Source of the DNA: Nemertoderma westbladi
Lineage: Eukaryota > Animalia > Xenacoelomorpha
Assembly: GCA_032718475.1 (NCBI GenBank)
Contig: JAUCBJ010006894.1
Coordinates: 1 to 50,946, forward strand
Length of the DNA stretch: 50,946 nt
Direction: 5' to 3'
Part shown: piece after piece, positions 4,143 through 43,199 of the stretch
Layout: each line of letters starts with the position of its first letter
How positions within the stretch are numbered: the first letter of the stretch is position 1
Notes under the pieces: generated by a model
The model's database searches: none
Seen by the model: the letters and a program-made list of their open reading frames with translations, nothing else
Told to the model about the DNA's origin: nothing
Made by a program: the position numbers and the translations under genes

Positions 4143-5324
4143 ATGATTATTTAAAATGATTTGTTGTCCAATTACAGCGTACTGTATTATATAAAGGCAT
4201 ATTCCTTATCTGTATTGTTTGTTTGTAATGTAGGCCTACTACTAAATACTAGACCACAAAATAAACATTTTTCTTTGTTCAGGACAGAACCGAACAGCAT
4301 AAGTATATTTTTGCTACTAAGGTTTCTATCGCTGTTAAAAAGTTTTATTAAGTACACACAATACGAAATCATACGACAAGAAGTGCGGATAGATGGGAGC
4401 GTTTGAAGTTGGAAGCAAGAGCCAAGAGCAAGAGGCAAGAGCCTCATACCTGTTTAGCACCAGTGTAATGCGATAATGATAAAATTACCTACAGTATGCC
4501 CACCAATTCTGGTGCGACAGCCAGAATAAAGGAGCACTCATCGGCGACTTTTGTTGAAGAGAAAGTTCAGCGCAAGTACTAGCAGCTAGGGTCTAAGGTC
4601 CAATAGTGGCCATCAATAGCGCCGCTTCGTCTTATCAGAAATTTTACAGTACAGTAAATAATTATTGCCTCTTTATTGCTTTGGTTAGAAAATAACGTGC
4701 CATTGTAACCTGCTCCTTTCCTTTAATCTACCTATTCAATGCACATACCGGACTTTCGTACTGTAACCATTACTAGGAAGGGGGGGGGGGGGGTAGCGGT
4801 AGCCCCTCAAACTCCTCTCGATTTTTTTTCTTATTTTGTACCTCTTACATATCTCCAATGTAGCTAAAAATGCATAGGAAACGATATACCATCGGAAAGA
4901 GACTCATCAAAAGTCGATAAAATTTGAAAAAAAACATTTAGTGGCGTCCCCTACCGGTCTGCGTGAGATTTTAAAAATTTCACTTCAGAATTTCACTTTA
5001 AGGGGGAGGGGGGCTGGGGGGGGGCTGGGGGGGCTGGTACCCCCTCAGGAGATGTTTTTTTAAACAGCTCTAACTTCGTGTTGTAGGTCAATCAATGTTA
5101 TGTGGTGTTCAGCCAACGTGGGGAAGGCCAAAGTGCGAGCGAGTGGCGGAATTAAATATTTCACTAAAAACAGTCTATAAACAGTCCCTTAATATTTATT
5201 TCAAAAAAGTGCTGGATAATCTTTCATGATCTTCAGAAAACTTTTCAAACGAGCCATAAAATTATCGAATCAGGGTGAAAAACGGCGGAGGAGTAGTATT
5301 TTGAAAAATGGAAATCTCGTGAAA

Positions 5325-6440
5325 TGTAATTCCGAGATAATTTGCTTTAAAGTTTGAACCTGCCCGCTCAAACGTCTGTAGTCTGTTAATCGGTCAGTGA
5401 TGTTTGACACTGTGGCTTCATACCAACTGTCTGTAGTCTGTTAATCGGTCAGTGATGTTTGACACTGTGGCTTCATACCAACTCACTAAAATTATCAATA
5501 TGGGGGTTTTCGGGGTCGGTGATTTCATTTCTGATGTCAGTTTCAATATTTGATGGTAACTAATATGTCTGTCTGACAGTTTGTCTGTCTGTCTTCTATG
5601 TTTTTATGGACAAACTGGTAGACGGAAAGACAGCGATAACTCGAGAACTAAAAAAGATCTCGCCAAACGGTTTCAAGATTTGAACTCCCTATTAAATTCT
5701 GAATCAGATGAAAAAACCAAAAATGTGACAATTTTACCCAAAGAAGGGGTAGCCCCCCCCCCCCACCCCCCTTAACAATTTCAGTTATTTTCCATTTTTA
5801 TTTTCCGATACCATGTTTTTTGTTTATATTCATCATATTTTTCACGCACTTTTTGTATTGTCGTTTTCTATTTCTGAAAATTAGCAATTTTGTAAAAATA
5901 AATTCAAAATATTTTAAAAATATAAAAAAACCCTTTCTTGTAATTTTTCATACAAAAAATAGGGAATTATTATTAAATTAAGAAATGTGCTTGAAATTTA
6001 TTGTATAGCTTATGAAATTAAATTTCATAATTAATGCGAGGGTGAGCGGGGGGGGGGGGGGGGGGGAGGGTTAGTCCCCTTCGATAAAAATTTCACAAAT
6101 TTGCTTTTTATTGCAGAATTTAATGGGGATTTCAGATTTGATATGCGTTTAGAGATATCTCTTTTAGTTCTCGATTTATCGCGAATATCTGTCTGACAAC
6201 CTACTTGTCAAAATGTAATACAGGCAGACAGACAACCGACCCACGGATAATTTACATTCTACAAAAAATAAAACTGACATCGGAAATGAAATCAGCGACC
6301 CCGAAAACCCTCATTAATATAATTTTAACTCGGGTGGTGGTGTACTTCCATGTCAGACAATATTAACCAACCTGACCCAGATGGGTAGTTTTGAGCGAGA
6401 AGCTTTGAACTTTTGAAGACAATTATCTCAGAATGACATT
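5325..6440. mobile_element. Foldback-type non-autonomous DNA element with long degenerate inverted arms
   Basis: Reverse-complement pairs ~5328-5372/6390-6436, ~5487-5545/6270-6327, ~5634-5680/6130-6182. Related fragments at ~7040-7200 and ~19425-19580. Internal ~56-bp tandem duplication at 5373-5483. Confidence 0.7.
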
Positions 6441-7686
6441 TAGTTTTGCACGAATGTGAGCGTATTCAATTCCGCCACACCAACCCCCATAAAGTTGGCG
6501 TTAGGCAATATTGGAACTACAAGGTTGATTACCAATCAACCTTGTATCACCCCAATAAGCGGGGCAACAATAGGCCCCAAGTGGACATACACACAATGGG
6601 GGTCAGAGGTTACACCTCCGGGAGGGAGAGAGAGACAGCAGCGGGGGGAAGTACACCCAGGGAGATGGGAAGGTGACAAGTGAGTTATTAGCCAATGGGG
6701 GGAAGGCATCGGCTGAGTAGTGTAATGCGGCCAACCGGTGCAATATATTACCATGTCAGTGTATCATTCATTCACTCTTTAGTCAGATAGTTAGGGTGGT
6801 ACCGAGACTCTTATCACCGTCTCCGTCCACTGCTATCAGCCTATCTCATCAGTGCAATACCGGTACTCACGTTATTCTATTTCAACTGTGCTTTATATTT
6901 ATATTCTATGGACCAACAATAGCCAGAGTTAATAACACCAGAACTCTTTTCACGCACACGGCGGGGACGCGTAGATAAGAAACCGGATAAACCGGGATCC
7001 TCGGTGGATCCCGTCACAACGAAAAATACTCCTCCGCCATTTCTTAACCGTTTTTTTTGCAATTTTTGCTTTATATGCAAGTTCATTTCATAAGCTTCAA
7101 TAAATTTCACAAACTTTTCTTAATTAATAACATTTCCCTATTTTTTGAATGAAAAATTAACAAAAAGATTTTTTTTGTTTTTGACTAATGTTGAATTAAT
7201 TTTTACAAAATATTCAGTAACTGTTTTACAAATAACTACGATATGATGCGTCTATTCTAAGGAAAAATATATACTATACATAGTATTACTATACAATAAT
7301 AGTTTGATACTTCTTGAAAATAATATAATATGAGAGTTACGATTTAGTCAATGTATTTTGTTATGAGATTTATAATTATAATAATATTCTAATTTTTTAT
7401 AATATATAATTTAATGATACTAATTTATTATAATTTTAAATTTTGTTGTATCGTCTGACACGTTTACTTTATAAATTGAACAACTTCCTCAATATCTTAC
7501 CTTAATATTGATTAATTTATGAATTTATTTTCATCCTTTTTTTTGCTTGCTCAGATAATGAGGACGGGGTGTCATGGAGACCGTTTAATAATGAGAACAA
7601 TACTAATAATAATTATATGTATTATTTTTATTATAAGTCTACAATTCTTAGCTGCCTGACATCTACTCAAGCCTTATTCATTGCAG

Positions 7687-7815
7687 AGCGAGTTTGTGTG
7701 GACTTCCTAATACGAAAATATTGTGCTCATTGGAAGTTCCTGGGATTTTGTGAAAGATATCCAGCGAAGATGTCCAGATATTGCCTAAGAACTTGCAGGT
7801 TCTGCACGGAGAAAG
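7687..7815 (+). CDS. ShKT (ShK toxin-like) domain exon, phase 1-1
   Basis: TTGCAG acceptor at 7686; RVCVDFLIRKYCAHWKFLGFCERYPAKMSRYCLRTCRFCTEK has the six-Cys ShKT pattern ending C-x3-C-x2-C; GT donor at 7816; phase matches exon 2608-2677. Confidence 0.85.
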
Positions 7816-9946
7816 GTTGGTTTGTTTGTTTTAAGTAATCTCCAACTATTAATTAATTATTATGTTCATCTAACAATTTGATTTGTTAAAAGCCGATATA
7901 TAAAAGTCACTTAGTGCTACTTAATTAAAAAAGCAGTGAGTTTGTTCCACCTTACCCAAAGAATTCACGCCATATTTAAAGAAGCATTCAGTAGCCACGT
8001 TCTGCTTATATTATATGAGTAGGCCTATATATAAAATGATGACTGGAAGAGCGCTTTTCCACTGAATGTATTACTGAGGTCGCATCTAATCCAAAACTTA
8101 GAGTCCACAGATAAGTTTAGAAGGAAAATTGTTGTAGAACCTTGACGTCAAATATCTGTTTATATCATTGTGTATATTTTTTCAGCGTTATGATCCACCG
8201 AGTGTATTTATGAATTTATATACCAAGCGAGTGCATCGAGGGAGGTTTACATAAATATACAAGGCCCATAAACGCTGAATAGTGCACATTTCACACAATG
8301 ATGAATGTAATCTTTTTACATTATGTATACTTATCGGCGTTCTGATTGCTTAATGATGAATTAGCATTAATATTGCGGTTCCGTTCAATGGGTACAACGG
8401 CAACTGCGTACAGTGAGTCAAAGGGAACAAAACGAGTTAAAGTGTACAACATCAAACGGTACAACGAGTCAAAGGATACAAACCACGCGGCCAAAGGGTA
8501 CAAAACAGGTCATCAGAGGGTGTAAACGATACGAGTCAAAGGCTACAAAACGCCTTTTCAGAGTTCCGGTAGGTCTATACATACATCTGACTGCTGATTC
8601 TAAATTAAACTTGGTTTTCTATTCTACAACAATTCCTAATTCACGTTTATTGTTTTGGTTCCTTTCAACTTGCCTCTGTAACCTGCTCCTTTACTAATGT
8701 TAAAGCTTTTGCGGCTAAAATGTCCCCTTTTTACACAATGCTCTGGATACTCTAAACCTTAAAAAACTCTTTTAAGAACGTTATATTTTATGAACTGATA
8801 TAAACTTTCTCCCCCCAGCGTTTATTCTAAGTATAGAACTTTATCGTACACTCTTACAGAAACGCCAGTTGCTAAGATTACAAAATCACCACCAGCTATT
8901 GGACAGGATTCTCTTTGTCTTCATGCCTCTGTGATATTCACCATCCAATCAGTATACTTTCCCCTCTACGTCACACCATAGCCTGAATTACCGGATCCCT
9001 TGGTTACGGGTTGGTGGCATGGTTACTGATCCCTGATTGGAAGTTCTGACGGATTCCATAGGTTCTACAGCGTTCGACGTGATTCATGCTTTCCCGGCTA
9101 TTTCAGGCAAGAACATTATTGCAACCCCTCGAGTTGTGTGCGAGTGTTTATACACTTCCTGACTTTGCACCCAGAAACACCAGCGGCCAGAGAGACATAG
9201 AACGCAAATCTATTAACGTTTACACGTACATACTCACGTTTACATTCTTATTTAACGTCCACATGTCCTGTCCATACTACTTCTGACTAGCACTGCAACA
9301 CATCCTGACTGTCTGATATTGCCGCAACACCGCATTTTATACTGTTTTATGCTGTTATAATCTGTTGTAATTTGTAACATATGAATTAATGTTAATAGTT
9401 GGAGAATACTTACGAATAACCGGTACCGGTAGATGTCTTGGTTTTCATGATTTATTGAGGTAAGCGGAGGGGAATACTATTCACAATTGCCTAGCTCAAA
9501 TAACAGTGGTTTGTATGAGTTTATGCTGTATCATAGTCCCCAACGTACGTGAGTTAAGTTCTCCTTATATGCGAGTAAAATTGGTGACTGTTGGCAAATT
9601 AGCGTGTTTCAGTACTATTGTCAGTTGTGTGAGTATGAACGATTAATATTACATCCCTAAAGGATGTAAACATTTGCATTGTCTTATGTCCACCCGTTGT
9701 AATTGTTGTATCCTTTACATCGGAAGTATAGAAGAAATAAAGTGAAATGTATTAGGTATTAATTATCCCAGATTTATTAATACAGGTCCAGTTTATCAAC
9801 CGTACCAGACACGGTAGGCTGGTTTAAAGGGAAGTACAGAAGTACTTAAATAATTCAGCATGTCAATACAGCAGTATATTCATCAGACCATATCCCAGCA
9901 CGTAGACGGTAGTTATATTAAAAAACTGTTAAAGTACTTAGATCCA

Positions 9947-10078
9947 ACTACTAGGATCGGCATGCTGCATTGCAGCTGCATTTTTAAGAATGCTGTGCCG
10001 GCTTGTCAACAAAATTGCACCGCCACAACTCCCTATCACCCATGACATTTGCTCGATCATCCGCATCTTTAAGGCCAG
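9947..10078 (-). mobile_element. RTE family A extreme 3' end
   Basis: Reverse complement of ~22225-22356, including gcagctgcaatgcagcatgccgatcctagtag. Confidence 0.85.
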
Positions 10079-10829
10079 ATCTTAGATCCAAACCACCACC
10101 TTAAAGGAAACTGAAAGTAACTTATCAGTATATAACAGTAATTAGTATAAGTCATAACTCATAAGTCATAAGTCATATTTAAAGCGCAGCATCTGAAAGG
10201 AACTGTTGATATTGCCCGGAAAATAAACATAGTTTTTGGAGATTATATAGTAAAGATCAATCGAATAATACAATGTGTCCTACGGCTCCCTCTGCCATCG
10301 AATCCAGTCTCCCACTTCCGGTGGGTCATACGCCGCGCTAGACTGGCTTTGGCTGTGTTCATTTTGTACGGGCTGTCAGGTATTAATAGACATATAAATT
10401 AGCAGGTTAAACTGTTAAAAGGTCTAAAAGCGCGAATAACTAACATGCCTGGTTTTGGAGGCCCCCCTACAGGATAATCCCAAATTCTGCGCCTGGCAGC
10501 TGGGTACTGTATAAACAGTACTTTGACGTGTTTTTTGTACCCTTTGGTACGTATGTTGTGCCCTTCGACTTGTTGTACCCTTTCTGTAACATTTGTACCC
10601 TTTGACATGGTATTTGAACTCTTTGACATGGCTGTTGTTCACTTTGACATGTTGTACCATTTTTCCACTTTTGTACTCTATGACCTGTTGTACTCTTTGA
10701 CTCTAAATCACATGTAAGCTAATCTTATACTTAGCCTACAATGGCTAATCATAGTTGGATAATACTCAAAGACTTCTAAAACTTCTAGAACTTCTAGAAC
10801 AAAACTTCTAGAAGTTTATTTATTACTAA

Positions 10830-11070
10830 AAAAAAAAGCAAACAGTCGGCCGAAGCCGGAGGCGACCCGAAGGCTCCTCTCCTCTTTCGATAACTGCTAC
10901 CCGAGGGTAGGGGTGGGCGCTACTCCTATCCCATGATTTGCTCCCAGTTATTTAACTGGTACTCATTTTATCGACCCCAGTGGATGAAAGGCTGTGTGGA
11001 CCCTGGCGGGGCTGAACCTACAACCAATAGATTGCAGGCCCGGCGCTCTACCAACTGAGCTAACCCCGCC
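10830..11070 (-). mobile_element. tRNA-derived SINE
   Basis: Head ggcggggttagctcagttggtagagcg (A box), ggttcagccc (B-like box); central cagcctttcatcc..ggggtcgataaaatgagtacc domain shared with 23040-23082; T-rich tail; possible ttactaa TSD. Confidence 0.8.
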
Positions 11071-11502
11071 TTTACTAAGTTAGTTACATACTAAGTTACT
11101 TTGCAACGTTCCGTCCTATAGGCTGCAACGCTGCAAATTGGTACTTTGCTGCGTTTCGAGGATATCAGCAGAAAGCTGATAATTAAGTTAATACAATGTA
11201 ACAAAATAGTTTATCACGACCACTGCGTTCTAGAATCGCCAAACTTATGTGGGGAATTCTACTATTAGCCATATAGACCGGAAGATCTGTTGGTAGTCCA
11301 TCTGACAACCAACCCACTGTACATATAAAAAATATAGCTAACTAACTATAATATTAGTGACTGACATCACCACAACACAGAAACCACTGGCTATGTAATT
11401 CATTCCAACTGACTGTTTATTGCTGATGTGTCATTTTAGCTTAACCCTATTACCACTGGTGGGGGGGGGGAATCGGCCCCTTCCTAGTTTTTAGTTGCTG
11501 TA

Positions 11503-12017
11503 TGTTCGCGGTATTTCAACTTTCCATAACGCGAGTTGAATATTTTTGTATTTATTTAAAATTGATTATTCCGATATTACTACTGGGTGCGGGACCATGG
11601 GTTTTGGGCACATTCAAGAAACTGGGGGCGATTTATGGGCGAACTTTGGGGCAACTTACAGGGTACGGGAATAATTTCATAGTTATAAGGGCCAGGGGTG
11701 GATGGAAAATGCAAGCAGTATTCAGGGATTTATATTATCGTGTATAATTATTGTGAATATTTGGTGTATATTGATTTGGGGAAGCCCAAAATTATTCTTA
11801 ATCAAGTTTCAATGATGTTGAACGGGTTTCAACTATAGGAAGTTACATTAAAGAGTATATCCAACTAATGCAGCTTTTTATCAACCGCAAACTTGCATCT
11901 CAGAAAATATTCCCTCCCCACAATCAATATCCGGTGACTGGCCGGGGCTCGGTGGTCTGTTAAGTCACGTCTCCAGCATCGGCGTTTTTCCCCCCTGGTG
12001 TAGGGATAACGGCAACA
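11503..12017 (+). repeat. 5' LTR
   Basis: Direct repeat of 16862-17376; TATA-like motifs at 11743 and 11767; ATTAAA at 11847. Confidence 0.97.
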
Positions 12018-12019
12018 AA

Positions 12020-12032
12020 ATTAAGAATAATT
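12020..12032 (+). promoter_or_regulatory. Putative self-priming primer-binding site
   Basis: ATTAAGAATAATT, 2 nt after the LTR, is the exact reverse complement of LTR 11790-11802; there is no TGG tRNA-type PBS at the boundary. Confidence 0.65.
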
Positions 12033-12268
12033 CACGTGGTTAATTTTGACAGGGTGTCAAAATTAAGAATAATTACGGTCAACTTCAACTGGTGGAAGTT
12101 GAGAATCCTTCAATACTCTTCAAAAACTCTCTACGTGCTTGCCAGCACCCACTACGAGGAAACTCTGGTATTTGAGTTGAGACAAAGTCGTGGTTTAATT
12201 AATCAGCAAACTCGATCTAACCAACTCGTAGTCGGCAGATCACATATTTGGAGAGTTGTTAACAGGGA

Positions 12269-12460
12269 ATGGAAGTATCGATCACACCCATTGATATAAT
12301 TCAAGTTGAGCCAGGAATCTGGCACGTCGAAGTTGAGGTACAAGGAACGAACGTTGGACGATTCAGGATTACTGTTCGGGTGGTCCAAGCTGAGTACAAT
12401 ACCTACGAGGAACTGTTTTACGACATCGCGTATCTAGCCATCGACGAGGCGTTACAATGA
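12269..12460 (+). CDS. 63-aa upstream ORF overlapping the gag start (ATGA)
   Basis: Good initiation context (GGAATGG); alternating hydrophobic pattern followed by an amphipathic helix-like segment; stop overlaps the gag ATG. Confidence 0.5.
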   Translation: MEVSITPIDIIQVEPGIWHVEVEVQGTNVGRFRITVRVVQAEYNTYEELFYDIAYLAIDEALQ

Positions 12461-15099
12461 CAACAAATAACGTATCCGATACCGACGAGATGGATCACCA
12501 CACAGACTCGGAAGCCGACGAGGTACCAAACGTCAAGAACATGACCCGTCGGTTAGGGGCTCTTAAAGGCGGAGTAACCCGAGCGTATCAACGGATGGAG
12601 AAACAACTCAAAGGAGTCAAAACCCCCCTCAATGAGGTACAAACTCAGCTTCAAAGTATCCGAAATATCCTACAGCGGTACGAAAGAATGATACAGGCGT
12701 ACCAAGAGCTCGTTCCCCCCACCGATCAGGAAAACTACCCCAAGTTGGAAGAACACGTTGTACATCTAGATGGGTTCCGCAAACAACACCGGAGGACCCT
12801 CAGCCTTGTGAGAGGCTATGAGGAACAGTATTACAAGAGGGCTGACGCGGAATCAGTACGATCCTCCAGCATCATGACAGCAGTACATCGTAAGAGAACG
12901 GGGTCCGCTAGAAATCAGCACTCCAGCGCTAGGAGCGAGATATCCGGCTCGGCGCGCAGTTCTCAAGGGGCGCCGCCACTCCGAGACCAACTGCGAGAAC
13001 GGAAGGCATTAGCCCTCAAAGCTCGGATGGAAGATGAGTATATTCAACTGCAAGCCGAGCACGATGTATTAGCCGCCGAAACACAAAAGCGAGAGGCCGA
13101 ACAAGCGGCCGAACGGCAGGCCGAACAACGCGAACAGGAGGCCGAACAACATAGACGAGAAGCCGAACGGCAGGCCGAACAACGTGAACAGGAGGCCGAA
13201 CAACATAGACGAGAGGCCGAACGACAGGCCGAACAACGCAAACAGGAGGCCGAACAACGCCTACGAGAGGCCGAACGAGAGATCGAACAACGTAAATGGG
13301 AAGCGGAAATGCGTAAACAACACGCCGAGGCCCAAGCAATTCTTATCCACAAAAAGAATGCGGATATTGCAAAACTCGCAGAATACGAAGCCGCACTTAT
13401 AGAACGAGATATTCAACTCTACGAGGACTGGGAAAGGGATATAGATCAGGAATATGAACCAATTCCGGTACCGGAGTTAGAAAAGTCATTTACACCAACA
13501 GCGGCGAAACCTCCGAAACCCGAGATCCCGCCTACCAAACAGTCTACGCTATCGGCGCAAGCCCCGGTGTTCCATCCCCCACCAGCTACGCTAAAGAATG
13601 AGGAACCTTATTTCCCATCCAACACCACGACAGCGAGTGTACCCAAGTACGAGCCTGAAAGGGACTCGGAACGGGACGCCACTCCCCGATCTAACAACCC
13701 ATTTACATCCACACCACAAACTCGTAGCCGCGTCATTATTAAAACTCCACCTATTATTGATCCATCAAGTATGGGAGTGAGTGCCAATAACTATAACCCT
13801 CCGAGTCACTCCAGTTCAGACGACGTCAGCATCATCCGGGCGTTGGAGAACCGCCTTGCCATGCCTAAGATGGAGATTCGCACCTTCGAAGGAGATCCCG
13901 TTGATTACCTCAGATTCAAGAAACGGTTCTTTGCGCAGATCGGATCAACGGACATAGCCGACGCACAGAAATTGGTATATTTATCGCAATACCTGGGTGA
14001 CAAACCACGCAGAATTGTTGCATGTTTTGAAGGAGGTTCTCATGAGGCATACTATGACGCATGGAAAACTCTAGATAAAAGATACGGAAATACCGGAACT
14101 ATAATTAATAAAACTCTAGAGAGACTGATACAGGACGCGGGATCACTAGGGGACCCACAGAACATACAGGAATTCTCCGACTCTATGAAGGATGCCTACT
14201 ATACTCTGAAACCCTTAAATAAAGAGGACCAGGTGAACAACATTCTAAACCTCCGACAGATCGCCAAGAAGTTCCCCGGATGGCTACAAAGTAAGTGGGC
14301 TTATAAATGTGTAGATCTCCGGCGCAGACATCCAGATCGAGATCCTAGCTTCCTTGAAATGTCGGCATTCCTGGACGATATCTCCGAAGCCATGAATGAC
14401 TCGATGTTTTCAAAACAAAGTCTCGCAAAGTTGGACGGAATAGAGAGCAACTCCAGGAGTAAGATAACCCCTCCGAAACCGAGATTCCGCCCCCCACCGG
14501 TAAGTACGATGGCCATTACCATGGCAGAGGATTCCAACGACGAAGACTACGAGGAACCGACATCCGCCGAGGAATGGGCATGTTATCTCGCGGGTTGGGC
14601 ACCCGAAAGGGAAGGCATCACAAATTCCCTGCTCTGTCTCTTCTGTGGGGAGAAACACAAAGTGGAATTCTGCAGAAAGTTTCAGTTCGCCGAACTCGTC
14701 CCACGCTTCGAGGCGATAATGAAACACCGAGGATGCTTCCGGTGTCTTGGAACAGGTCACTATGTTCGGGAGTGCGACCAAAGATCATGCTGTACTGTCT
14801 GTAACGACCAACGCCATCACACGCTCCTCCACATCCCCGCGAACTTCGATTTTACTACCCTCCCCTTTCGGATCGAAGCCAGGCGAAGAGGAGAAACAAA
14901 CCACATCTTCAAAGGAACCCGGACAACCCAACGGAGAGAAACCAACCCGTTTAAAATCTCCACCGATACACCACAAGTAACCAATATTTCGGCCACGATT
15001 AATCTTATAAATCGCCGCTACATGGTTTTCGCAAAGGTAATCCCAGTAAGGATCCAAGGAGTCGAAATGGACGATACACCAAAGGTGGGAGAATCCTGA
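12457..15099 (+). CDS. gag: Bel/Pao Gag, 880 aa, truncated near the start of the protease
   Basis: Coiled coil; DUF1759-like PKMEIRTFEGDP...KLVYLSQYL...AWKTLDKRYG; triple knuckle CLFCGEKHKVEFC / CFRCLGTGHYVREC / CTVCNDQRHHTLLH; ends just after VIPVRIQG. Confidence 0.92.
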   Translation: MTTNNVSDTDEMDHHTDSEADEVPNVKNMTRRLGALKGGVTRAYQRMEKQLKGVKTPLNEVQTQLQSIRNILQRYERMIQAYQELVPPTDQENYPKLEEHVVHLDGFRKQHRRTLSLVRGYEEQYYKRADAESVRSSSIMTAVHRKRTGSARNQHSSARSEISGSARSSQGAPPLRDQLRERKALALKARMEDEYIQLQAEHDVLAAETQKREAEQAAERQAEQREQEAEQHRREAERQAEQREQEAEQHRREAERQAEQRKQEAEQRLREAEREIEQRKWEAEMRKQHAEAQAILIHKKNADIAKLAEYEAALIERDIQLYEDWERDIDQEYEPIPVPELEKSFTPTAAKPPKPEIPPTKQSTLSAQAPVFHPPPATLKNEEPYFPSNTTTASVPKYEPERDSERDATPRSNNPFTSTPQTRSRVIIKTPPIIDPSSMGVSANNYNPPSHSSSDDVSIIRALENRLAMPKMEIRTFEGDPVDYLRFKKRFFAQIGSTDIADAQKLVYLSQYLGDKPRRIVACFEGGSHEAYYDAWKTLDKRYGNTGTIINKTLERLIQDAGSLGDPQNIQEFSDSMKDAYYTLKPLNKEDQVNNILNLRQIAKKFPGWLQSKWAYKCVDLRRRHPDRDPSFLEMSAFLDDISEAMNDSMFSKQSLAKLDGIESNSRSKITPPKPRFRPPPVSTMAITMAEDSNDEDYEEPTSAEEWACYLAGWAPEREGITNSLLCLFCGEKHKVEFCRKFQFAELVPRFEAIMKHRGCFRCLGTGHYVRECDQRSCCTVCNDQRHHTLLHIPANFDFTTLPFRIEARRRGETNHIFKGTRTTQRRETNPFKISTDTPQVTNISATINLINRRYMVFAKVIPVRIQGVEMDDTPKVGES
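13090..13290 (+). repeat. In-frame 54-bp (18-aa) tandem repeat in gag
   Basis: AERQAEQREQEAEQHRRE, about 3 copies. Confidence 0.9.
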
Positions 15100-15124
15100 T
15101 CGACGGAACTACGTTTACGTCGTT

Positions 15125-16696
15125 ATGGAGTGCTACACCGTCGCTAAGTTTATCTGTAAAACTCTCGATAACCTTATTACGGCGGTCCCCCTTTCCTTCG
15201 TCGACTACGACTGGAATGAGGTTTTAAACCACGCGTTTAAAGTGGTCGAGAACATTACACCGGGAGAATCGAAAACGCCCGCCGTTATCGATTCCTGGGA
15301 CGAGAGCGGACCTTACGACATCCCTACGATTACCGAACTTCTCGGTGCGGAGGAGCCTCTGATCTCCTCGGAAGGGGAAGAGATATGGCTAAACGAGGGT
15401 GTTCTACTCTCCACCCCGAAGCGACAACTCGAGCCGGAGGCCGCGTATGGACCGGCCGCCAAACGGGTTGCCTCGGCCGAACCGATGAAGAGAGCAGGCG
15501 TTTACACCCCACGCGGCTCCGGTAGCCCCGCGAGGGAGGTAGCCGCTACAGCTGCATTGAGCGACTTCGGCGACATATGCCAACGGTTATCCCCGTATCC
15601 TTTCCCGGGTGGTGAAGATTGGTCATCGGAGATTCCGAGTACCAGCCACCAACGGACCCGCTCAGCGATACTGGTCGAGGAGGGCCCCAGCGATGCGCCG
15701 ACACCCGACGATCTCCTCGGTATCCCTCCGTCTAAAACCCCGGCACCCCTTCGCCGACCAGCGGTGGCTACTACACCCGCCGTTCCTCAGGACCCTATGC
15801 GACTAACCCGTTGGTACGCCGAGCAAACTGAATGGATCCACCGCCAGAAACGGTCATCCGAGTTGAGACCAGCGGGACACAAAGAAGGTTATCGGAGCGA
15901 GAACCTACTACGCAAAAGCCTAGCATTCCGCGGGCTACCGACCACCGAGAATATTCCGAAGAGCGACCGACGACTCGAATACTACGTCGGCGTCCCGATT
16001 CCGATATTTCCTGGTCGAGAGATGCAGTTGGAGGTATGCGGCGACTGCGGTTCGGAGCAGTGCCCACGCAGCAGAAGGAATCGGGTTACCGATTCTTGCC
16101 TCCAGCTCCTCGGGATACTCTATTGCCCATACTGCGCGACATCGGGCCACGACGTTTCCGTCTGCCCGATCCTTTATAACCTCTGCACCACGTGCGGTTT
16201 CCGTGGACATTCCTCTAGCCCCCGCTGCTATATCAAATGTCCAACCAAAGACGTTACCGCTATGGGCAATATGGTCATGTTTGAAACATACGCAAACAGC
16301 CACTTAAAGACCAAGGTTCGGAGAAACGCTCGGAATATCGCGCAGGAGATGGCGTGCGGATATTTCTCCTTCCCGGAACGCCTCCACACGTCGGCCACGC
16401 TACCTTTCCATTACGTGGATCTGCTACTGAGCGCCGGATTATTCGGTCCATTTGAAGTCATTAGACGATTATACTCGTATAAAGAGGAGTTCGGTGACGG
16501 AGAATGGTTCCTAGAGGCACGCAAATCTGAGTTGGAGAGACGAACCGACATGATCCCGATGCCTTCGAAAGGAAGAGCCGCCAGGAGACAAGCCGAAGCG
16601 TTACTCACGATGGATGTTGACGCTCCTCTACCAGCCATAGCGATCGATGAGAGTCGACGGGCGAAGAGACGAAAGGCGTATCAGAGAAAGAAATAG
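15125..16696 (+). CDS. Accessory ORF, 523 aa, with tandem CCHC zinc knuckles; function unknown
   Basis: Uninterrupted ORF in the env position; CPYCATSGHDVSVC (Cx2Cx4Hx4C), CTTCGFRGHSSSPRC, upstream CGDC..C..C; basic NLS-like C-terminus RRAKRRKAYQRKK. Confidence 0.85.
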   Translation: MECYTVAKFICKTLDNLITAVPLSFVDYDWNEVLNHAFKVVENITPGESKTPAVIDSWDESGPYDIPTITELLGAEEPLISSEGEEIWLNEGVLLSTPKRQLEPEAAYGPAAKRVASAEPMKRAGVYTPRGSGSPAREVAATAALSDFGDICQRLSPYPFPGGEDWSSEIPSTSHQRTRSAILVEEGPSDAPTPDDLLGIPPSKTPAPLRRPAVATTPAVPQDPMRLTRWYAEQTEWIHRQKRSSELRPAGHKEGYRSENLLRKSLAFRGLPTTENIPKSDRRLEYYVGVPIPIFPGREMQLEVCGDCGSEQCPRSRRNRVTDSCLQLLGILYCPYCATSGHDVSVCPILYNLCTTCGFRGHSSSPRCYIKCPTKDVTAMGNMVMFETYANSHLKTKVRRNARNIAQEMACGYFSFPERLHTSATLPFHYVDLLLSAGLFGPFEVIRRLYSYKEEFGDGEWFLEARKSELERRTDMIPMPSKGRAARRQAEALLTMDVDAPLPAIAIDESRRAKRRKAYQRKK

Positions 16697-16861
16697 TGGA
16701 TCGGGATATTCCAGGAACATTTATCGAACATTTATTTTTATACAAACTCTAGGCCAAATTAATTAAAAACTATGCAATATTAAATTTGGGTTTTTTATAT
16801 TGGGAATGACCTACGCAAACTCAATCGACCGACAGACTTCACGAAGGTCATTGGGGGGGAC

Positions 16862-17376
16862 TGTTCGCGGTATTTCAACTTTCCATAACGCGAGTTGAAT
16901 ATTTTTGTATTTATTTAAAATTGATTATTCCGATATTACTACTGGGTGCGGGACCATGGGTTTTGGGCACATTCAAGAAACTGGGGGCGATTTATGGGCG
17001 AACTTTGGGGCAACTTACAGGGTACGGGAATAATTTCATAGTTATAAGGGCCAGGGGTGGATGGAAAATGCAAGCAGTATTCAGGGATTTATATTATCGT
17101 GTATAATTATTGTGAATATTTGGTGTATATTGATTTGGGGAAGCCCAAAATTATTCTTAATCAAGTTTCAATGATGTTGAACGGGTTTCAACTATAGGAA
17201 GTTACATTAAAGAGTATATCCAACTAATGCAGCTTTTTATCAACCGCAAACTTGCATCTCAGAAAATATTCCCTCCCCACAATCAATATCCGGTGACTGG
17301 CCGGGGCTCGGTGGTCTGTTAAGTCACGTCTCCAGCATCGGCGTTTTTCCCCCCTGGTGTAGGGATAACGGCAACA
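16862..17376 (+). repeat. 3' LTR
   Basis: No differences from the 5' LTR seen by eye. Confidence 0.97.
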
Positions 17377-20064
17377 CTGTAACTATGCAACCACATTACG
17401 TACCGGCCCAATTTTTATTGCTAATTAGCCAAATTTAATGCCGAATCTTTGCAAAAAACGACGTTGCAATTGGATTTCTACTTTTCGATGTGGGTGCCAC
17501 CTCAAAATTTGGCCTCCAGCACCAAATTTTTTGAAATTTTCGAATCTTACAAAGTCATTCGTGATTTAGTAATTATTTATGTTTGGGCTATTTTTATTTA
17601 TTTTTGTTGGTTTGGATCACTCTAATGCTCTATACAAGTATGTAAGTGTAGTGTTACGTAATTTTTGGAGTACCAAAATTATGGCGTGGCACTTTAAAAT
17701 TTCAAAATTACTTTATTCGGAAAATTTACTAAAGTTTTGATTTCGAAGCATTTTTATTGGTTTTCTGGAGCGCTGAATCGATTGAAAGTAATATAGAAGC
17801 CTGAAGACTTAGAGGTTCGCCATTTTTGGTGCTCCAACATTTTTCATTTCATTTTTCAAAATTTGAAGTGCCACGCCCTAATTTTGGTACATCAAGAATG
17901 GCTAACCTCTAAGTCTTAAGGCTTTATATTACTTTCAATCGATTCTGCGGTCTAGAAAACCTATATAAATGCGTTAAAATTTCAATTTTGGTTTATTTTC
18001 CGAATCTCGTATTTTTCAAAATTTGAAGTACCACGCCCTAATTTTGGTGCACCAAAAATGGCGAACCACTAAGTCTTCAGGCTTCTATATTACTTTCAAT
18101 CGATTCAGCGGCCCAGAAAACCTATAAAGATGCGTTGAAATAAAAAATTAGGGGCATTTTCTGAATATCTAATTGTTCAAAATTTGAAGTGCCACGCCCA
18201 CATATTAGGTGCACGAAAAATAGCATCCACTTCAATTTTTGGAAATGGAATATAATCACATTCGATTCAGCGTCTTGAAAAACCTACTAAATCTAGCCAA
18301 CACTGCCACACTTAGTTTTCAGAAAACGAAAAATTTTGTAATTTTGTCCTGGGACTACTTTTATTTTTCATCAAAATTATGATTCCCTGCTTATGAAATT
18401 TTAACTTTTTAAGGTTTGGTAGTGTTCATCTATAGTTGTTTCACCAACAGCCCAAATTTTGTAGGATTTCATTGGACGATTACAAAAATATAGTGGGTGG
18501 GCCGAATCGAAACATTATTTTTTATTTGCCCATTTATAACCCCGTATAAATATCTATAATATAGGTGAGCGACGCCTACGTAGGCTTATTGCGGCGGTGA
18601 GGGTCGGAGGCTAATAAGCGTCATATTATACACACCCCGGGTTGTATGTTACTTGAATTACAGGTAAATAATACATTATAATATTTATAAATAGTGTCTG
18701 TTAGAGATTTTATCATTGTTTTTTTTTTATCTTTACCATATACGGAATCGTATTTTAATTGTGTGAGCATTCTAGGATAGGCATGTGAGTGACTCTGTTG
18801 GCTTCAGTGGGTGTTATTAGTTTATTTCGGCAACAGCAGCCATAGTGTTACTGCATTATATTAATCCTCACTGGGTCACCCCAATAATTTATATTTATTA
18901 TATTACAGTGGGAATTTCCAATTAAATTGTTCTGGAGATCAAATCATGACTTGGACTTGGATTTCAAATGAGTATAAAATAACTTCTTTGGATTTATTCC
19001 CCAGGCAAAACATCATCAATCGTTACATAAATTGGCAATATGTAACATAGATTAATTTTATAATAATATAGTGGTTGAAGTTAATTTCTTAATATTGGTG
19101 AGGTTATATATACATAATGTATCGGTAATCAATATATTGCTAAATATATTTTTATATACGTTACTTTTGTTCTACATAATTGTATCACTCCAACCCTTTC
19201 GATAACATCAACCTATTGTTACACCGTGTATTGTTACACCTGCTATGTACCATTGTTGAACCCGGTCATTTCATTGCCGAGGAACAAGGCTTTCTTCCTC
19301 CTTGTGTGAGGTAAGATTGTCTCAGATTACCCAAATTCTATGAATGTCTCTCATTAGTATCGCATCTTTGTCGAGTTGGATCTCGCCTTGTGTCTCGCAT
19401 CGTGTTGTCAATTATAGCCTGGTCTTTGATTTCATTTCCGATGTCAGTTTTAATATTTGGTGTAATGTAGTCTGGCGGTTGTCTCTCTGTCTATCTTACA
19501 TTTTAACAGACAGATTGGCAGACAGATATTCCGCGATAACTCGGGAACTAAAAGAGATCTCTCTAAACCCAAATTTCTGAAGTTGTTTCAGTTGTTTCAG
19601 ATTACGATTTTTATTTGCGAAATTATTGGCGAATATAGGCAAAATGTTACAGTTGCTGGTCATTGATCATCTATTGAGCACTCATAGCAGTAATATAGAG
19701 CTAACGTGTTGGCAAGTAAATCAAATGAGTCAGTTTATAAACACCACCGTAAAATCTACAGTTTTGTTGCACGACAAATTTATTGTTAGTAGAATAATGT
19801 ATTAGTTAGTCCTCGTCCATTTCTCTGTCCATAAGCTTACTGTGTGTATGTATGTGGAAGACAAGCTCGACACACAACAAAAGGACACTAAGGAGTATTT
19901 GGAATTAACATTATTATTATTATTATATTTATTGCCCTTATATATGGGACATGGGACACTACTAATTGTACCATTTGTTGGTTTATAACGCAATGCGAAT
20001 ACAATTAATCAATACCTATGTACCTATATGGAGCTATATACAGGCTATATACAGCTATATACTA

Positions 20065-22366
20065 TACAGGAGCTCTATACAAGACTGTAATGCATTTACA
20101 CTTCGACCCTTCTCCAGTGATCACCGCCTTATTGTGGCCAAGGTAAGACTTAGTCTGCGTGCTAGCAGAACAACGAAATCTGCCTTGCCGCGGCATGACT
20201 GGTCCTCTCTGTTGCAACAGCCAAGTGTGAGATCCAGCTTCACACTACAGCTGAGCAACAGGTATGAGGCTCTTGCCTCTGAGGCGGCAGATCACTGTGA
20301 GGGCTATACTGCCTTTACAGAAGCAGTTAAGTTAGCAGCTGCAGAAACAGTTCCTGTATACCCTCGAAACAGGAAAAGGGCCCCCTGGACTGACAACAAA
20401 ATTCAGAAGTGCCGAAATGACCTTCATAAGGCGCAGAAAGAGTCCCGACTCAAACAGACTACAGCGGCCAAGAATGCAGTTAAGGCTGCATCTAGGTCCC
20501 TGAACAGGCAGTACTCTGCTAATCTACAGGAGCTAATAAACCAACAGGTTGATGCCATCAATGATGCTGACGACAGCAGGCAATCATCCCAGGCATGGAA
20601 ATCGATCAATCTGCTTACTGGGCGGAAAAGCCAACCAACCACCAAGGTTAAGGCTGAATCACCAGCCGATCGCCTCAATGGTTGGAAAGCCCACTTTGAA
20701 AAGCTCCTCAATAATGACAGGGTATTGCCTGATAACTTTATAGAAATAAAAGTGTCTGAGTCTGTACTCCCAGATATTCCCATTGGCGATATCTCCTTTG
20801 CAGAAGTGAAGGCTGCTGCAAAGAGCATTAAGACCAATCGTGCCAGTGGAGTAGATGGTGTTCCCCCTGAGGTCTTTAAAATACCTGAGTGTTTAAAGCT
20901 CATCTATCCCATCATAGTAGACATGTACCGAACAACAAGAGTCCCACAAGAAATGAAAACAAAGAAGTTGGTGCCAGTTCCCAAGAAGGGCAACCTAACA
21001 CTCTATGGTTCTTTTCGGGGAATCTCATTGATCTCGATTGCTGCAAAGCTATACAATAGGATTCTATTAAATCGCATCAGGGATCCCATTGAGAGACTGC
21101 TCCGTGGAAATCAGAATGGGTTCCGTAAAGGTCGTGGGACCATGGAGCCCATTTTGGCACTTAGAAAGGTAATTGAAGAGTTATCAAAAAAGAAAGACAG
21201 GCATCTGGCTGTTATCTTTGTTGACTTCTTCAAGGCCTTTGATTCAGTCTTTATATAGTCTTTATATATTCAGTCTTTCATTATATGGGATTCCTGATGA
21301 AATTATTGCAGCAATCAGATCAGTATACGATGGTTCGACAACATTTGTGTCTACTGTTGACGGTGACACAGAACCATTTGAAGTGTTATGGGGCGTCCTC
21401 CAAGGAGACACACTTACACCATTCTTGTTCATTATTGTGGTTGACTATGTTCTACGCATGTCCTTAGATCATTATAATGATGATGGGGTGATGATAACTC
21501 CACCTACTGGCTCCAGAAGTCGAGGAAATCCTGCCAAGTACCTAACTGATCTAGACTTTGCTGATGACTTAGGAGTACTCTCAGAATCATTAGAGGGAGC
21601 CCAATGGCTCCTCAGCTCATTAGAACATGCTACTTCTAGTGTTGGTCTTTTTATTAATTCTGACAGTTAACTTTGAAAGTCCTCAGCAAGTCTCTGATCG
21701 GTTGAGCATAAGCTCAAAGGATGGTATGCTTGAGCATGTGGACGACTTCTGTTACCTGGGATCATGGATCCGGAAGTCAGGTGAGGACCTTCGAATACGT
21801 AAGGGAAAGGCATGGGCAGCCTTGAATAGGCTTTCCAGGATTTTGAAGTCACCGAGAATTAATCGGAAACTTAAGGTCCGATTATTTAGAGCAGCAGTAG
21901 TTCCAGTACTCCTCTACGGGAGTCCATGCTGGGCTCTAACTGCTGAGGACACCAAATCTCTGGATGGCGCATTCACAAGAATGCTACGCCGGGTTCATTG
22001 TGTTAAGTACAATGCACACATCTCCAACCAGACACTATATAACATTGGAGGTGTCTCATTGGTTCCCCCAAGCTTGACACTAGAACAAAATCGCCTCCGC
22101 TTTGCAGGACATTGCTTTCGCCGTGAGGACCAGCCAGTGCATAATCTTCTACTTTGGCAGCCTCATGGAGTGAATAAGCATGGTGGACAGCCCATGACTT
22201 TCTTGAGAGGCATCTTAAAGGACACTGGCCTTAAAGATGCGGATGATCTAGCAAATGTCATGGGTGATAGGGAGTTGTGGCGGTGCAATTTTGTTGACAA
22301 GCCGGCACAACATTCTTAAAAATACAGCTGCAATGCAGCATGCCGATCCTAGTAGTAGTAGTAGTA
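20065..22366 (+). pseudogene. RTE-like LINE family A, longest copy; 5'-truncated and frameshifted
   Basis: Endonuclease end SDHRLIV; RT motifs ASGVDG, VPVPKKG, FRGISL, QNGFRKGR, VDFFKAFDS, GVLQGDTL.PFLF, FADD, YLGS; (AGT)n tail. Confidence 0.92.
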
Positions 22367-23092
22367 GGCTGCAGCTTGGTCTAGTGGTGACATTCATGGG
22401 CTTCCAATTAGGAAGCCCTGGTTTGATCCCTAGTTGGGAAAGCACTGTTTGGACACAGTGCTTTAACCCTATTAAAACCTATATTTAACCTATAACCCTA
22501 TATCACTGAAACAAACTCAGTTGGGAATCTGGAATTTTATGACTTTTCCTAAAAATCTATTGTCTTCCTAATAGTGAAAACGGTTTTCAAAAATATTGGG
22601 AAGATTTCGAGTTATATCACCATTTTTTTAACCCTACTTTTGGCACGTTTTGAGACGTTTTTTGAAAATTACATTTCATGAAATATGAATTGTAACATCT
22701 CTATTTTCAATTTACACCGGTTTTTTGGTCTTTGCAATCAGATGGAATTCATAGACATTTATATAGAAATTTCAAACTTGTTTTTTTCGGCGGGTGCCAA
22801 ATTTTGGTGCCAGCACAAACTTTTTAAATATGTCAATTTTGTAAATTGAAAATTTGTATTGAAAAACAATTAGCCGAAAATTGTAACTTTAAAAATTTAT
22901 AAGAAAATGAAAATTGAAATTTATCCACTACTTGTAATTTTGGTGCTGCAATATAACCACCCCAGTACATTTTTTGTATTACGTATTTGTACAACATTTT
23001 AAAGCCCGGTACTAATAGGGTTAAATGCTACAGCCTAGCCCAACCTCGGCTTTCATCCTTCAGTGGTCGATAAATGGGAACCAATGCATCTG
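22367..23092 (+). mobile_element. tRNA-derived SINE interrupted by a piggyBac-like element
   Basis: A box tggtctagtgg, B box ggtttgatccc; resumes at 23025 with ctttcatccttcagtggtcgataaatg. Confidence 0.7.
22467..23020. mobile_element. piggyBac-like MITE, 554 bp
   Basis: TTAA duplicated at 22463-22466 and 23021-23024; termini CCCTATTA / TAATAGGG. Confidence 0.8.
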
Positions 23093-26000: not shown

Positions 26001-28415
26001 TTCCTTTAGGAAACATTGTCGAAGGATTTACTGTGGGAGATCACCCATGGTGGTGAACAGGCATTCCTTTAGGAAACAGAGTGGAAGGGTTTACTGTGGA
26101 AGATCACCCATGGTAGTGAACAGGCATCCCTTTAGGAAACAGAGTGGAAGGGTTTACTGTGAAAGATAATTCATGGTGGTGAATAGGAATTCCTTTAGGA
26201 AACAGAGTGGAATGGTTTACTGTGGAAGATCACCCATGGCAGGGGTGGACAGGCATTCCTTTAGGAAACAGAGTGGAAGGGTTTACTGTGGAAGATCGCC
26301 CATGGTGGTGAACAGGCATTCCTTTAGGAAACAGAGTGGAAGGGTTTACTGTGGAAGATCACCCATGGTAGTGAACAGGCATTCCTTTAGGAAACAGAGA
26401 GGATGGGTTCACTGTGGAAGATCACCCATGGTGGTGAACAGGAATTCCTTTAGGAAACAGAGTGGAAGGGATTACTGTGGAAGATCATCCGTGGTGGTGA
26501 ACAGGCATTCCTTTAGAAAACAGAGTAGAAGGGTTTACCGTGGAAGATCACCCATGGTGGTGAACAGTAATTCCTTTGGGAAACAGAGTGGAAGGGTTTA
26601 CTGAGTAATTTCACCCATGGTGGTGAAAATGAATTCCTTTGGGAAACAGTGTGGAAGGGTTTACTGTGGAAGATCACCCATGGTGCAGTAGTGAACATGC
26701 ATTCCTTTAGGAAACAGAGTGTAAGGGTATACTGTGGAAGATCACACATGGTGGTGAACAGGCATTCCTTTTGGAAACAGAGTGAAAGGGGTTTACTGTG
26801 GAAGATCACCCATGGTGGTGAACAGGAATTCCTTTGGGAAACAGAGTGGAAGGGTTTACTGTGAAAGATCATTCATGGTGGTGAATAAGAATTCCTTTAG
26901 GAAACAGAGTGGAATGGTTTACTGTGGAAGATCACCCATGGCAGGGGTGGACAGGCATTCCATTAGGAAACAGAGTGGAAGTGTTTACTGTGGAAGATCA
27001 CCCATGGTGGTGAACAGGAATTCCTATAGGACACAGAGAGGATGGGTTTACTGTGGAAGATCACCCATGGTGGTGAACAGTAATTCCTTTAGGAAACAGA
27101 GTGTAAGGGTATACTGTGGAAGATCACACATGGTGGTGAACATGCATTCCTTTTGGAAACAGAGTGAAAGGGGTTTACTGTGGAAGATCACCCATGGTGG
27201 TGAACAGGAATTCCTTTAGGAAACAGAGTGGAAGGGTTTACTGTGGAAGATCACCCATGGTGGTGAACAGTAATTCCTTTAGGAAACAGAGTGGAAGGGA
27301 TTAATGTGGAAGATCATCCGTGGTGGTGAACAGGCATTCCTTTAGGAAACAGAGTAGAAGGGTTTACCGTGGAAGATCACCCATGGTGGTGAACAGTAAT
27401 TCCTTTAGGAAACAGAGTGTAAGGGTATACTGTGGAAGATCACACATGGTGGTGAACATGCATTCCTTTTGGAAACAGAGTGAAAGGGGTTTACTGTGGA
27501 AGATCACCCATGGTGGTGAACAGGAATTCCTTTGGGAAACAGAGTGGAAGGGTTTACTGTGGAAGATCACCCATGGTGGTGAACAGGGATTCCTTTTGGA
27601 AACAGAGTGGAAGGGTTTAGTATGGAAGATCGCCCATGGTGGTGAACAGGGATTCCTTTAGGAAACAGAGTGGAAGGGTTTAGTATGGAAGATCGCCCAT
27701 GGTGGTGAAAAGGCATTCCTTTAGGAAACAGATAGGATGGGTTTACTGTGGAAGATCACCCATAGTGGTGAACAGGAATTCCTTTAGTAAATAGAGAGGA
27801 TTGGTTTACTGTGGAAGATCACCCATGGTGGTGAACAGGAATTCCTTAAGGAAACTGAGTGTAAGGGTTTACTGTGGAAGATCACTCATGGTGGTGAACA
27901 GGAATTCCTTTTGGAAACAGAGTGGAAGGGTTCACTGTGGAAGATCACCAATGGTGGTGAACAGGAATTCCTTTTGGAAACAGAGTGGAAGGGTTTACTG
28001 TGGAAGATCACCCATGGTGGTGAACAGTAATTCCTTTAGGAAACAGAGTGGAAGGGATTACTGTGGAAGATCATCCGTGGTGGTGAACAGGCATTCCTTT
28101 AGGAAACAGAGTAGAAGGGTTTACCGTGGAAGATCACCCATGGTGGTGAACAGTAATTCCTTTAGGAAACAGAGTGTAAGGGTATACTGTGGAAGATCAC
28201 ACATGGTGGTGAACAGGAATTCCTTTTGGAAACAGAGTGGAAGGGTTCACTGTGGAAGATCACCAATGGTGGTGAACAGGAATTCCTTTTGGAAACAGAG
28301 TGGAAGGGTTTACTGTGGAAGATCACCCATGGTGGTGAACAGGAATTCCTTTTGGAAACGGAGTGAAAGGGGTTTACTGTGGAAGATCACCCATGGTGGT
28401 GAACAGGCATTCCTT
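23093..28415. repeat. 63-bp satellite, roughly 84 monomers, with higher-order repeats
   Basis: Unit gtggaagggtttactgtggaagatcacccatggtggtgaacaggcattcctttaggaaacaga; 255-bp and 1464-bp periodicities. Confidence 0.97.
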
Positions 28416-43150: not shown

Positions 43151-43199
43151 CCGAGCATGCTATAACCATTAGTTTCAGCTTCGTGTACCGAATCTGTGA

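What the first reader, a model, noticed from the sequence alone, without database searches (positions are those of the whole stretch)
11790..12032. Apparent tRNA-independent self-priming in a Bel/Pao element
Seen: no TGG PBS follows the 5' LTR. After a 2-nt spacer, ATTAAGAATAATT (12020-12032) is the exact complement of AATTATTCTTAAT (11790-11802). That segment lies between TATA-like motifs (11743, 11767) and ATTAAA (11847), where the transcript should start. The polarity is right for the primer 3' end to extend into U5. Known: S. pombe Tf1 and the Tf1/sushi Gypsy group prime from the first ~11 nt of their own mRNA, whereas Bel/Pao elements are generally described as tRNA-primed. Inference: self-priming arose independently here. 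Caveat: a 13-nt AT-rich match could be chance, though its position is very specific.
Basis: partly seen in the sequence, partly recalled or inferred. Interest (0 to 1): 0.85.

Follow-up and report, generated by a model that had tools for sequence, protein, structure and literature searches.

The report
Likely self-priming Bel/Pao retrotransposon
A freshly inserted, cut-down Bel/Pao jumping gene in an animal genome has no tRNA landing site; at that exact spot sit 13 bases that match a stretch of its own terminal repeat, so it likely starts DNA copying with its own RNA, a trick I found described only in other retrotransposon groups.

Summary
The element (11503-17376) has identical 515-nt LTRs and a 5-bp target duplication. 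It carries a Bel/Pao gag and a Cys/His ORF but no protease, RT, RNase H or integrase. No TGG follows the 5' LTR; 12020-12032 is the exact complement of 11790-11802 (15 of 20,000 shuffles). Both ends have 2-nt spacers, which fits a primer end at 12020. Not shown: the transcript start (no TATA consensus; usual spacing gives about 11774 or 11794-11798, not 11790) and covariation. The only sister copy found does not cover the site. Of 16 distant Bel/Pao relatives with a visible junction, 15 have tRNA-type sites; one is decayed. The site also shares 7 nt with a published internal tRNA-Lys primer site, a weaker rival. Verdict: self-priming about 0.55, unproven; a new variant of a known mechanism. 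The scan noted the same signature before in Bel/Pao elements of other genomes (unchecked notes).

The parts
11498..11502 (+). left target-site duplication CTGTA
11503..12017 (+). 5' LTR, 515 nt, TG...CA
   Evidence: identical to the 3' LTR
11731..11774 (+). three TATA-like words (11731, 11743, 11767); none fits TATAWAWR
11790..11802 (+). putative self-primer, exact complement of 12020-12032
11847..11852 (+). ATTAAA, likely poly(A) signal, the only such hexamer in the LTR
   Evidence: function inferred
12018..12019 (+). 2-nt spacer AA between LTR end and primer site
12020..12032 (+). putative primer-binding site, no TGG
12040..12066 (+). 12-bp hairpin (12040-12051 with 12055-12066), predicted to lock the second 13-mer
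12058..12074 (+). 17-nt direct repeat of 12016-12032, holding a second copy of the 13-mer at 12062-12074
12079..12102 (+). 8-bp leader hairpin; its loop holds the TGG at 12090
12457..15099 (+). ORF1, 880 aa from the first ATG: Bel/Pao Gag (DUF1759 plus zinc knuckles), ending just after residues that resemble the start of the protease region
   Evidence: DUF1759 E 2.6e-15; homologues; protease resemblance by eye against P0004
15050..16696 (+). ORF2, 548 aa stop to stop: Cys/His cluster shared with the 3' ORF behind integrase in full-length Bel/Pao elements
   Evidence: E 6e-22 over residues 328-528
16853..16861 (+). polypurine tract (7 G) plus 2-nt spacer AC before the 3' LTR
16862..17376 (+). 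3' LTR (copy of the primer segment at 17149-17161)
17377..17381 (+). right target-site duplication CTGTA

Best explanation
This is a recently inserted Bel/Pao element without polymerase genes that likely primes minus-strand DNA synthesis with a piece of its own RNA, using enzymes likely borrowed from a full-length partner. Shown: identical LTRs, target duplication, no pol, no TGG site, an exact 13-nt complement two bases from the LTR end, 2-nt spacers at both ends. Inferred steps: (1) transcription starts at or somewhat upstream of 11790; (2) 11790-11802 folds back on 12020-12032 while the second 13-mer is held in the 12040-12066 hairpin; (3) a cut just 3' of 11802, by the partner's RNase H as in Tf1, frees a 3' end paired to 12020; (4) RT copies the spacer, U5 and R back to 11803; (5) about 60-70 nt of R (11803 to a poly(A) site behind ATTAAA 11847) serve the first strand transfer; (6) integrase trims the two spacer bases. 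The primer need not be the very first bases of the RNA; it only needs to be transcribed and cut.
For: Match rarer than shuffles: 15 of 20,000, 18 of 200,000. It begins 2 nt after the LTR end, mirrored by a 2-nt spacer after the G tract at the other end. The partner lies downstream of the TATA-like words and upstream of the only poly(A) hexamer, the one region where a self-primer leaves an R overlap. With starts at 11774-11790 the helix has mean pair probability 0.49-0.94 in 11 of 12 folds, and the second copy at most 0.03 in all 30. The element moved recently (515 of 515 LTR identity), so its RNA was primed somehow, yet TGG lies 19 nt or more from the LTR end. In 14 distant tRNA-primed relatives the same statistic gives 5-8 nt (only part of each LTR was held). 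The mechanism exists: Tf1 uses its first 11 bases after an RNase H cut (PMC7175516, passages).
Against: No transcript start is known; no word fits TATAWAWR or TCAKTY, and usual spacing (recalled, about 25-31 nt) gives starts near 11774 or 11794-11798; the only nearby YYANWYY puts +1 at 11794, which would leave 9 paired bases. Starts at 11796 or later lose the helix in 8 of 9 folds, and starts at 11717 or 11760 give 0.03-0.44. The duplex is weak: 12 A-U pairs of 13, about -10 kcal/mol. The whole 5' fold is no better than shuffles (z -1.26; 11 of 100). No covariation was seen, since no close relative with this junction was found. Real window DNA reaches 13 nt at 158 of 10,062 positions. The leader shows direct and inverted local repeats, so it may have been rearranged. 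The first 7 nt also fit a published internal tRNA-Lys site.
Confidence: 0.55

Rival explanations
1. The leader of this deleted copy was rebuilt by template switching or slippage; the 13-nt complement is a by-product or a chance match, and the family is primed in some other way.
For: 12016-12032 recurs at 12058-12074 and 12040-12048 is an inverted copy of 12016-12024. The element has lost pol. The match is AT-rich; 1.6% of real window positions reach 13 nt. All 15 readable junctions in distant relatives are tRNA-type.
Against: Identical LTRs and two open ORFs leave little time for damage after insertion. Sister contigs in run X1 match the leader and gag start from 12116 on at 98-100%. The match starts exactly where a primer end is needed and its partner lies between the TATA-like words and the poly(A) hexamer.
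Confidence: 0.22
2. The site binds a host tRNA fragment, most plausibly a tRNA-Lys cut in the anticodon arm, as reported for fungal FunCo1 Copia elements; the LTR match is secondary.
For: FunCo1's site ATTAAGAGTCT, stated to pair with an internal region of tRNA-Lys (PMC5445492, passages), shares its first 7 bases and 8 of 11 with 12020-12030. 9 of 15 distant relatives carry TGGCGCCCAAC, the tRNA-Lys,2 site of Gypsy, so Lys-tRNA use is common in this kin.
Against: The implied duplex is 7 bp and -4.9 kcal/mol, against -12.4 on FunCo1's own site and -10.2 for the self match. PMC6317226 found half-tRNA primers only in Copia among plant elements. A 7-nt AT-rich match to one of some dozens of tRNA halves is not rare (rough estimate, a few percent; not computed in a call). 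The host's tRNA set was not available.
Confidence: 0.13
3. Another host RNA (spliced-leader RNA, snRNA, small RNA) or a protein primes at this site, and the post-LTR hairpins act as its landing structure, like the Conserved Hairpin Site of fungal GalEa elements.
For: Two hairpins follow the LTR; GalEa elements lack a tRNA site and carry a hairpin there (PMC5445492, passages). The host is unidentified, so such RNAs could not be checked.
Against: Rfam gives only two chance-level matches in 11400-12500. This reading leaves the 13-nt LTR complement unexplained.
Confidence: 0.1

Closest known systems
Tf1/Tf2 of S. pombe, Tj1 of S. japonicus and the Tf1/sushi group (Ty3/gypsy)
   Same: No tRNA site; the primer site pairs with a short LTR segment in the polarity that extends into U5 (PMC7175516, PMC4600332, passages).
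   Different: Other superfamily (Bel/Pao Gag). 13 nt, nearly all A-U. Not shown to be the first bases of the RNA. A second, hairpin-locked copy follows. No RT or RNase H of its own.
Tcn1 chromoviruses and TAR Copia elements (Houba, Osr-1) of plants
   Same: Self-priming predicted from sequence alone, outside the tested Tf1 (PMC6317226, passages).
   Different: Plant Gypsy and Copia lineages, predicted over many members; here one animal Bel/Pao copy.
Belpaoviridae (Bel/Pao; ICTV profile PMC8742986, whole text)
   Same: LTRs of 0.2-1.2 kb, Gag with DUF1759, polypurine tract, metazoan host (host inferred).
   Different: The profile gives an 18-nt site for the 3' end of tRNA-Arg or tRNA-Gly and a pol gene; neither is here.
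Bel/Pao elements with a 3' exonuclease-like plus Cys/His ORF in metagenome contigs (L007-L076)
   Same: Share the Cys/His cluster of ORF2 and Bel/Pao Gag.
   Different: They have gag-PR-RT-IN (L050: Peptidase_A17, RVT_1, DUF5641) and TGG tRNA sites; they are distant (window Gag on a long branch, at most 25% identity).
Fungal FunCo1 and GalEa Copia elements (PMC5445492, passages)
   Same: FunCo1's site starts with the same 7 bases; GalEa has a hairpin in place of a tRNA site.
   Different: Copia superfamily; the paper found no LTR complement for the GalEa hairpin.

Membership tests
Bel/Pao (Belpaoviridae) | two LTRs of 0.2-1.2 kb with target duplication | tested here: met
   515 nt, identical, 5-bp duplication
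Bel/Pao (Belpaoviridae) | Bel/Pao-type Gag (DUF1759, zinc knuckles) | tested here: met
   PF03564 E 2.6e-15; 4 of 5 homologues carry PF03564 and the fifth PF05380
Bel/Pao (Belpaoviridae) | pol with PR-RT-RH-IN, RT placing it in the family | tested here: not met
   no such domain in either ORF. It is a non-autonomous derivative; the assignment rests on Gag and ORF2
Bel/Pao (Belpaoviridae) | primer site complementary to a tRNA 3' end | tested here: not met
   no TGG within 19 nt of the LTR end
Bel/Pao (Belpaoviridae) | polypurine tract before the 3' LTR | tested here: met
   7 G at 16853-16859
Tf1-type self-priming (mechanism) | primer site next to the LTR complementary to an LTR segment | tested here: met
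   13 nt
Tf1-type self-priming (mechanism) | the complementary segment is the 5' end of the transcript | not testable with these tools
   only contigs were available; motif spacing is ambiguous
Tf1-type self-priming (mechanism) | fold that favours the primer helix and a U5 stem | tested here: inconclusive
   depends on the start chosen; overall z -1.26
Tf1-type self-priming (mechanism) | RNase H cut that frees the primer | not testable with these tools
   needs biochemistry; the element has no RNase H
Tf1-type self-priming (mechanism) | pairing kept by paired changes in related families | tested here: inconclusive
   no close relative with the junction; distant ones are tRNA-primed
Tf1/sushi group (lineage) | Ty3/gypsy chromovirus proteins | tested here: not met
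   Gag is Bel/Pao type
half-tRNA priming (Copia type) | 11 or more bases paired with an internal tRNA region | tested here: not met
   7 contiguous, 8 of 11, against the FunCo1 motif only; host tRNAs not available

The most novel reading that the evidence does not exclude
A Bel/Pao lineage in animals has dropped tRNA priming and cuts its primer out of its own RNA, a further independent invention of self-priming beside Gypsy and Copia. The primer ends in the same seven bases that a tRNA-Lys half would offer, so it may have arisen as a mimic of that tRNA piece, and the pol-less copy shows that the trick works with enzymes supplied in trans.
Probability: 0.4. Interest if true: 0.75.

Novelty: new variant of a known kind. 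Interest (0 to 1): 0.5.

Why it matters
The ICTV profile describes Bel/Pao replication as primed by a host tRNA, and my searches of the open library found no paper on self-priming in this group. If true, tRNA-free priming would occur in all three LTR retrotransposon superfamilies. Such elements would escape silencing by tRNA fragments aimed at the primer site (inference), and annotation tools that require a tRNA site would miss or down-rank them. The element gives exact, testable predictions: primer 3' end at 11802, first copied base 12019, strong-stop DNA of about 217 nt.

Tried and rejected
No host genome is held, so other copies, host tRNAs and SL RNA could not be searched. The look-up of sequencing runs listed one run, X1, and no RNA holder on record. 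X1 is contigs only: it cannot show starts; nothing covers 12005-12115. Its LTR contig leaves 11790-11802 unchanged, but with about 8 differences in 281 nt that is expected by chance and counts for nothing. On the flank 6400-11502 only short pieces fit; lack of cover proves nothing. The loose end that would have shown the extra LTR segment was among 6 rows not printed. Homologue searches: ORF2 none, its alignment none among longer proteins, Gag 5 distant hits. Viral contigs: nothing for Gag, two motifs or the RT alignment. Prokaryote genome contigs: nothing. The RT motif matched none of 120 loci, so one search was a weak test; a wider motif scan for Bel/Pao RT was not run, which leaves open whether other collections hold closer kin. 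No tRNA gene in the window or in 59 loci. Rfam: chance hits only. TGG at 12037 and 12090 rejected as primer sites: too far from the LTR end set by the 3' LTR and target duplication. A splice-junction primer, as in earlier scan notes, is not needed: the 13-mer is contiguous in the DNA. The N-terminus of ORF2 does not match P0009's exonuclease-like part by BLASTP, so the deletion breakpoint in the 3' ORF is not mapped. Pfam and PDB sequence searches did not name the exonuclease-like domain. PMC554778 and PMC3118150 hold none of the primer terms. A recalled case of a C. elegans Cer element with its own tRNA primer was not found in the library. No supplements were read; those of PMC6317226 list self-priming predictions and bear on how such calls are made.

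Full report
The element. Window 11503-17376 is one LTR element: two 515-nt LTRs, identical at every base, TG...CA, flanked by CTGTA on both sides. ORF1 (12457-15099) is a Bel/Pao Gag: DUF1759 at E 2.6e-15, and five distant homologues of 23-25% identity, four with DUF1759 and one with the Pao peptidase family. It ends shortly after residues that look like the start of the protease region of P0004 (by eye). ORF2 (15050-16696) has no Pfam match but six relatives in a full HMMER search, sharing a Cys/His cluster. No protease, RT, RNase H or integrase is present. The host is an animal by inference only; no genome is held.

The observation. After the LTR come AA and ATTAAGAATAATT (12020-12032), the exact complement of 11790-11802. 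The first TGG is 19 nt from the LTR end. At the other end seven G are followed by AC and then the 3' LTR: both ends have a 2-nt spacer, as expected if integrase trims two bases and the minus-strand primer ends on 12020 (inference from retroviral rules). The leader holds more: a 17-nt direct repeat with a second 13-mer at 12062-12074, a 12-bp hairpin 12040-12066 and an 8-bp hairpin 12079-12102.

Chance. 15 of 20,000 LTR shuffles reach 13 nt within 30 nt of the end; analytic values are 2.5e-4 to 1.1e-3; 18 of 200,000 shuffles of the AT-rich promoter segment do so. On real window DNA 158 of 10,062 positions reach 13 nt, a count that includes the element itself and inverted repeats. The match is unusual, but in a scan of thousands of elements a few such would arise; what adds weight is that it coincides with the loss of the tRNA site.

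Transcript start. None of three TATA-like words fits TATAWAWR, and there is no TCAKTY. With usual spacing (recalled) the starts fall near 11774 or 11794-11798; 11790 is 23 nt from the nearest word. The one nearby YYANWYY has +1 at 11794. Folding depends on this: starts at 11774-11790 give the primer helix a mean probability of 0.49-0.94 in 11 of 12 folds; starts at 11717 or 11760 give 0.03-0.44; starts at 11796 or later lose it in 8 of 9; the second copy never exceeds 0.03 in 30 folds and the hairpin over it stays at 0.52-0.88. The duplex is about -10 kcal/mol, and the whole 5' fold is not better than shuffles. PMC3601003 (passages) warns that U3/R borders need RNA data.

Relatives. One public run, X1, holds a sister copy as six contigs, five of them 95% alike or more. 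Its LTR keeps 11790-11802, lacks 19 nt just behind it and has about 381 extra bases at 11725; no contig covers the primer site. A motif scan of metagenome contigs returned 120 loci from 24 of 64 parts of the collection, 80 with flanks. I mapped domains in the 56 of 3 kb or more; 21 have a Gag hit. In five (L019, L032, L033, L045, L065) the printed stretch did not show the 5' junction; L024 is decayed and unclear; the other 15 all have a TGG site. Nine read TGGCGCCCAAC, the tRNA-Lys,2 site of Gypsy (PMC1635307, passages). Their longest LTR complement is 5-8 nt in 14 of 15 (L010 was mis-parsed; only part of each LTR was held). L050 is a full Bel/Pao polyprotein. But these are distant kin: in a 14-row Gag tree the window sits on a long branch, at most 25% identical to any row. 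They show that the tRNA site is the norm for Bel/Pao elements with this 3' ORF. They neither confirm nor refute pairing in the window's own lineage.

Rivals. The fungal FunCo1 primer site, ATTAAGAGTCT, said to pair with an internal part of tRNA-Lys (PMC5445492, passages), shares its first seven bases with 12020-12026. The implied duplex is -4.9 kcal/mol against -10.2 for the self match; both put the primer end on the same base. The local direct and inverted repeats leave room for a rearranged leader. Other host RNAs could not be checked; Rfam shows nothing.

Mechanism. Most likely (0.55): the RNA folds 11790-11802 onto 12020-12032, a borrowed RNase H cuts behind 11802, RT copies about 217 nt back to 11803, and some 60-70 nt of R before the poly(A) site allow strand transfer. 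Only the sequence layout is shown; every enzymatic step is inferred from Tf1 (PMC7175516, passages; PMC4600332, passages).

What is known. Self-priming is shown for Tf1 and predicted for Tj1, Tcn1 and Copia TAR elements. The ICTV profile (whole text) gives tRNA priming for Bel/Pao. Searches for self-priming with Bel or Pao terms (listings) returned no paper reporting it for this group; passages read in PMC5443660, PMC3601003, PMC6934838 and PMC3286476 did not either. The library lacks most subscription papers and Repbase, so absence is not proven. The scan's own notes list seven such Bel/Pao cases in other genomes, some with claimed covariation or a splice-made primer; none resembles this stretch by sequence. 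I did not check their claims and do not count them as support; the splice lead made me look at the extra segment in X1.

Verdict. A real feature; a Bel/Pao derivative that works, most likely, like Tf1 but is no member of its lineage. New variant of a known mechanism. Interest 0.5: surprising for the group and directly testable, but it rests on one copy, with no start site and no covariation.

Noticed in passing
window 11724-11726 (run X1, 886-nt contig): A sister LTR carries about 381 extra bases here. The two aligned pieces overlap by AGG, the pattern that a spliceosomal intron or an insertion with a 3-bp duplication would give; the letters were not shown. If an intron, the window's LTR is a spliced form.
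   Followed up: partly
window 11805-11826 (run X1): The sister LTR lacks 19 nt just 3' of the putative primer, between two GTTTCAA repeats.
   Followed up: no
L050:7841-10231 and other loci: Many Bel/Pao elements in metagenome contigs carry a long 3' ORF behind integrase with a Cys/His cluster that Pfam does not name; in L050 its front part resembles WRN-like 3'-5' exonucleases (atlas score 0.93, PF01612 on 38% of the top cluster). DEDDy ORF3s are described for rotifer LTR elements (PMC5408684, passages).
   Followed up: partly
window 13047-13316: Tandem 21/33-nt repeats in gag code a charged, likely coiled-coil stretch.
   Followed up: no
window 10850-11070, minus strand: tRNA-headed SINE-like repeat by eye; ARAGORN calls no tRNA; similar pieces occur in run X1.
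   Followed up: no
window 23000-28500: Tandem array of 63/66-nt units, over 70 copies.
   Followed up: no
window 40438-50946: Near-identical 3540-nt tandem units with inverted-repeat pieces inside.
   Followed up: no
window 32478-33899: Open MFS transporter frame of 473 aa, SLC18B1-like by atlas.
   Followed up: no
window 19966-22319 and 34592-35398: Broken RT-bearing fragments (RVT_1), with related pieces at 1-1870 and 29259-31749; likely non-LTR elements.
   Followed up: no
L024 (oriented 5187-10931): A decayed element with gag remnant and the Cys/His ORF but no pol hit, the same layout as the window's element.
   Followed up: partly
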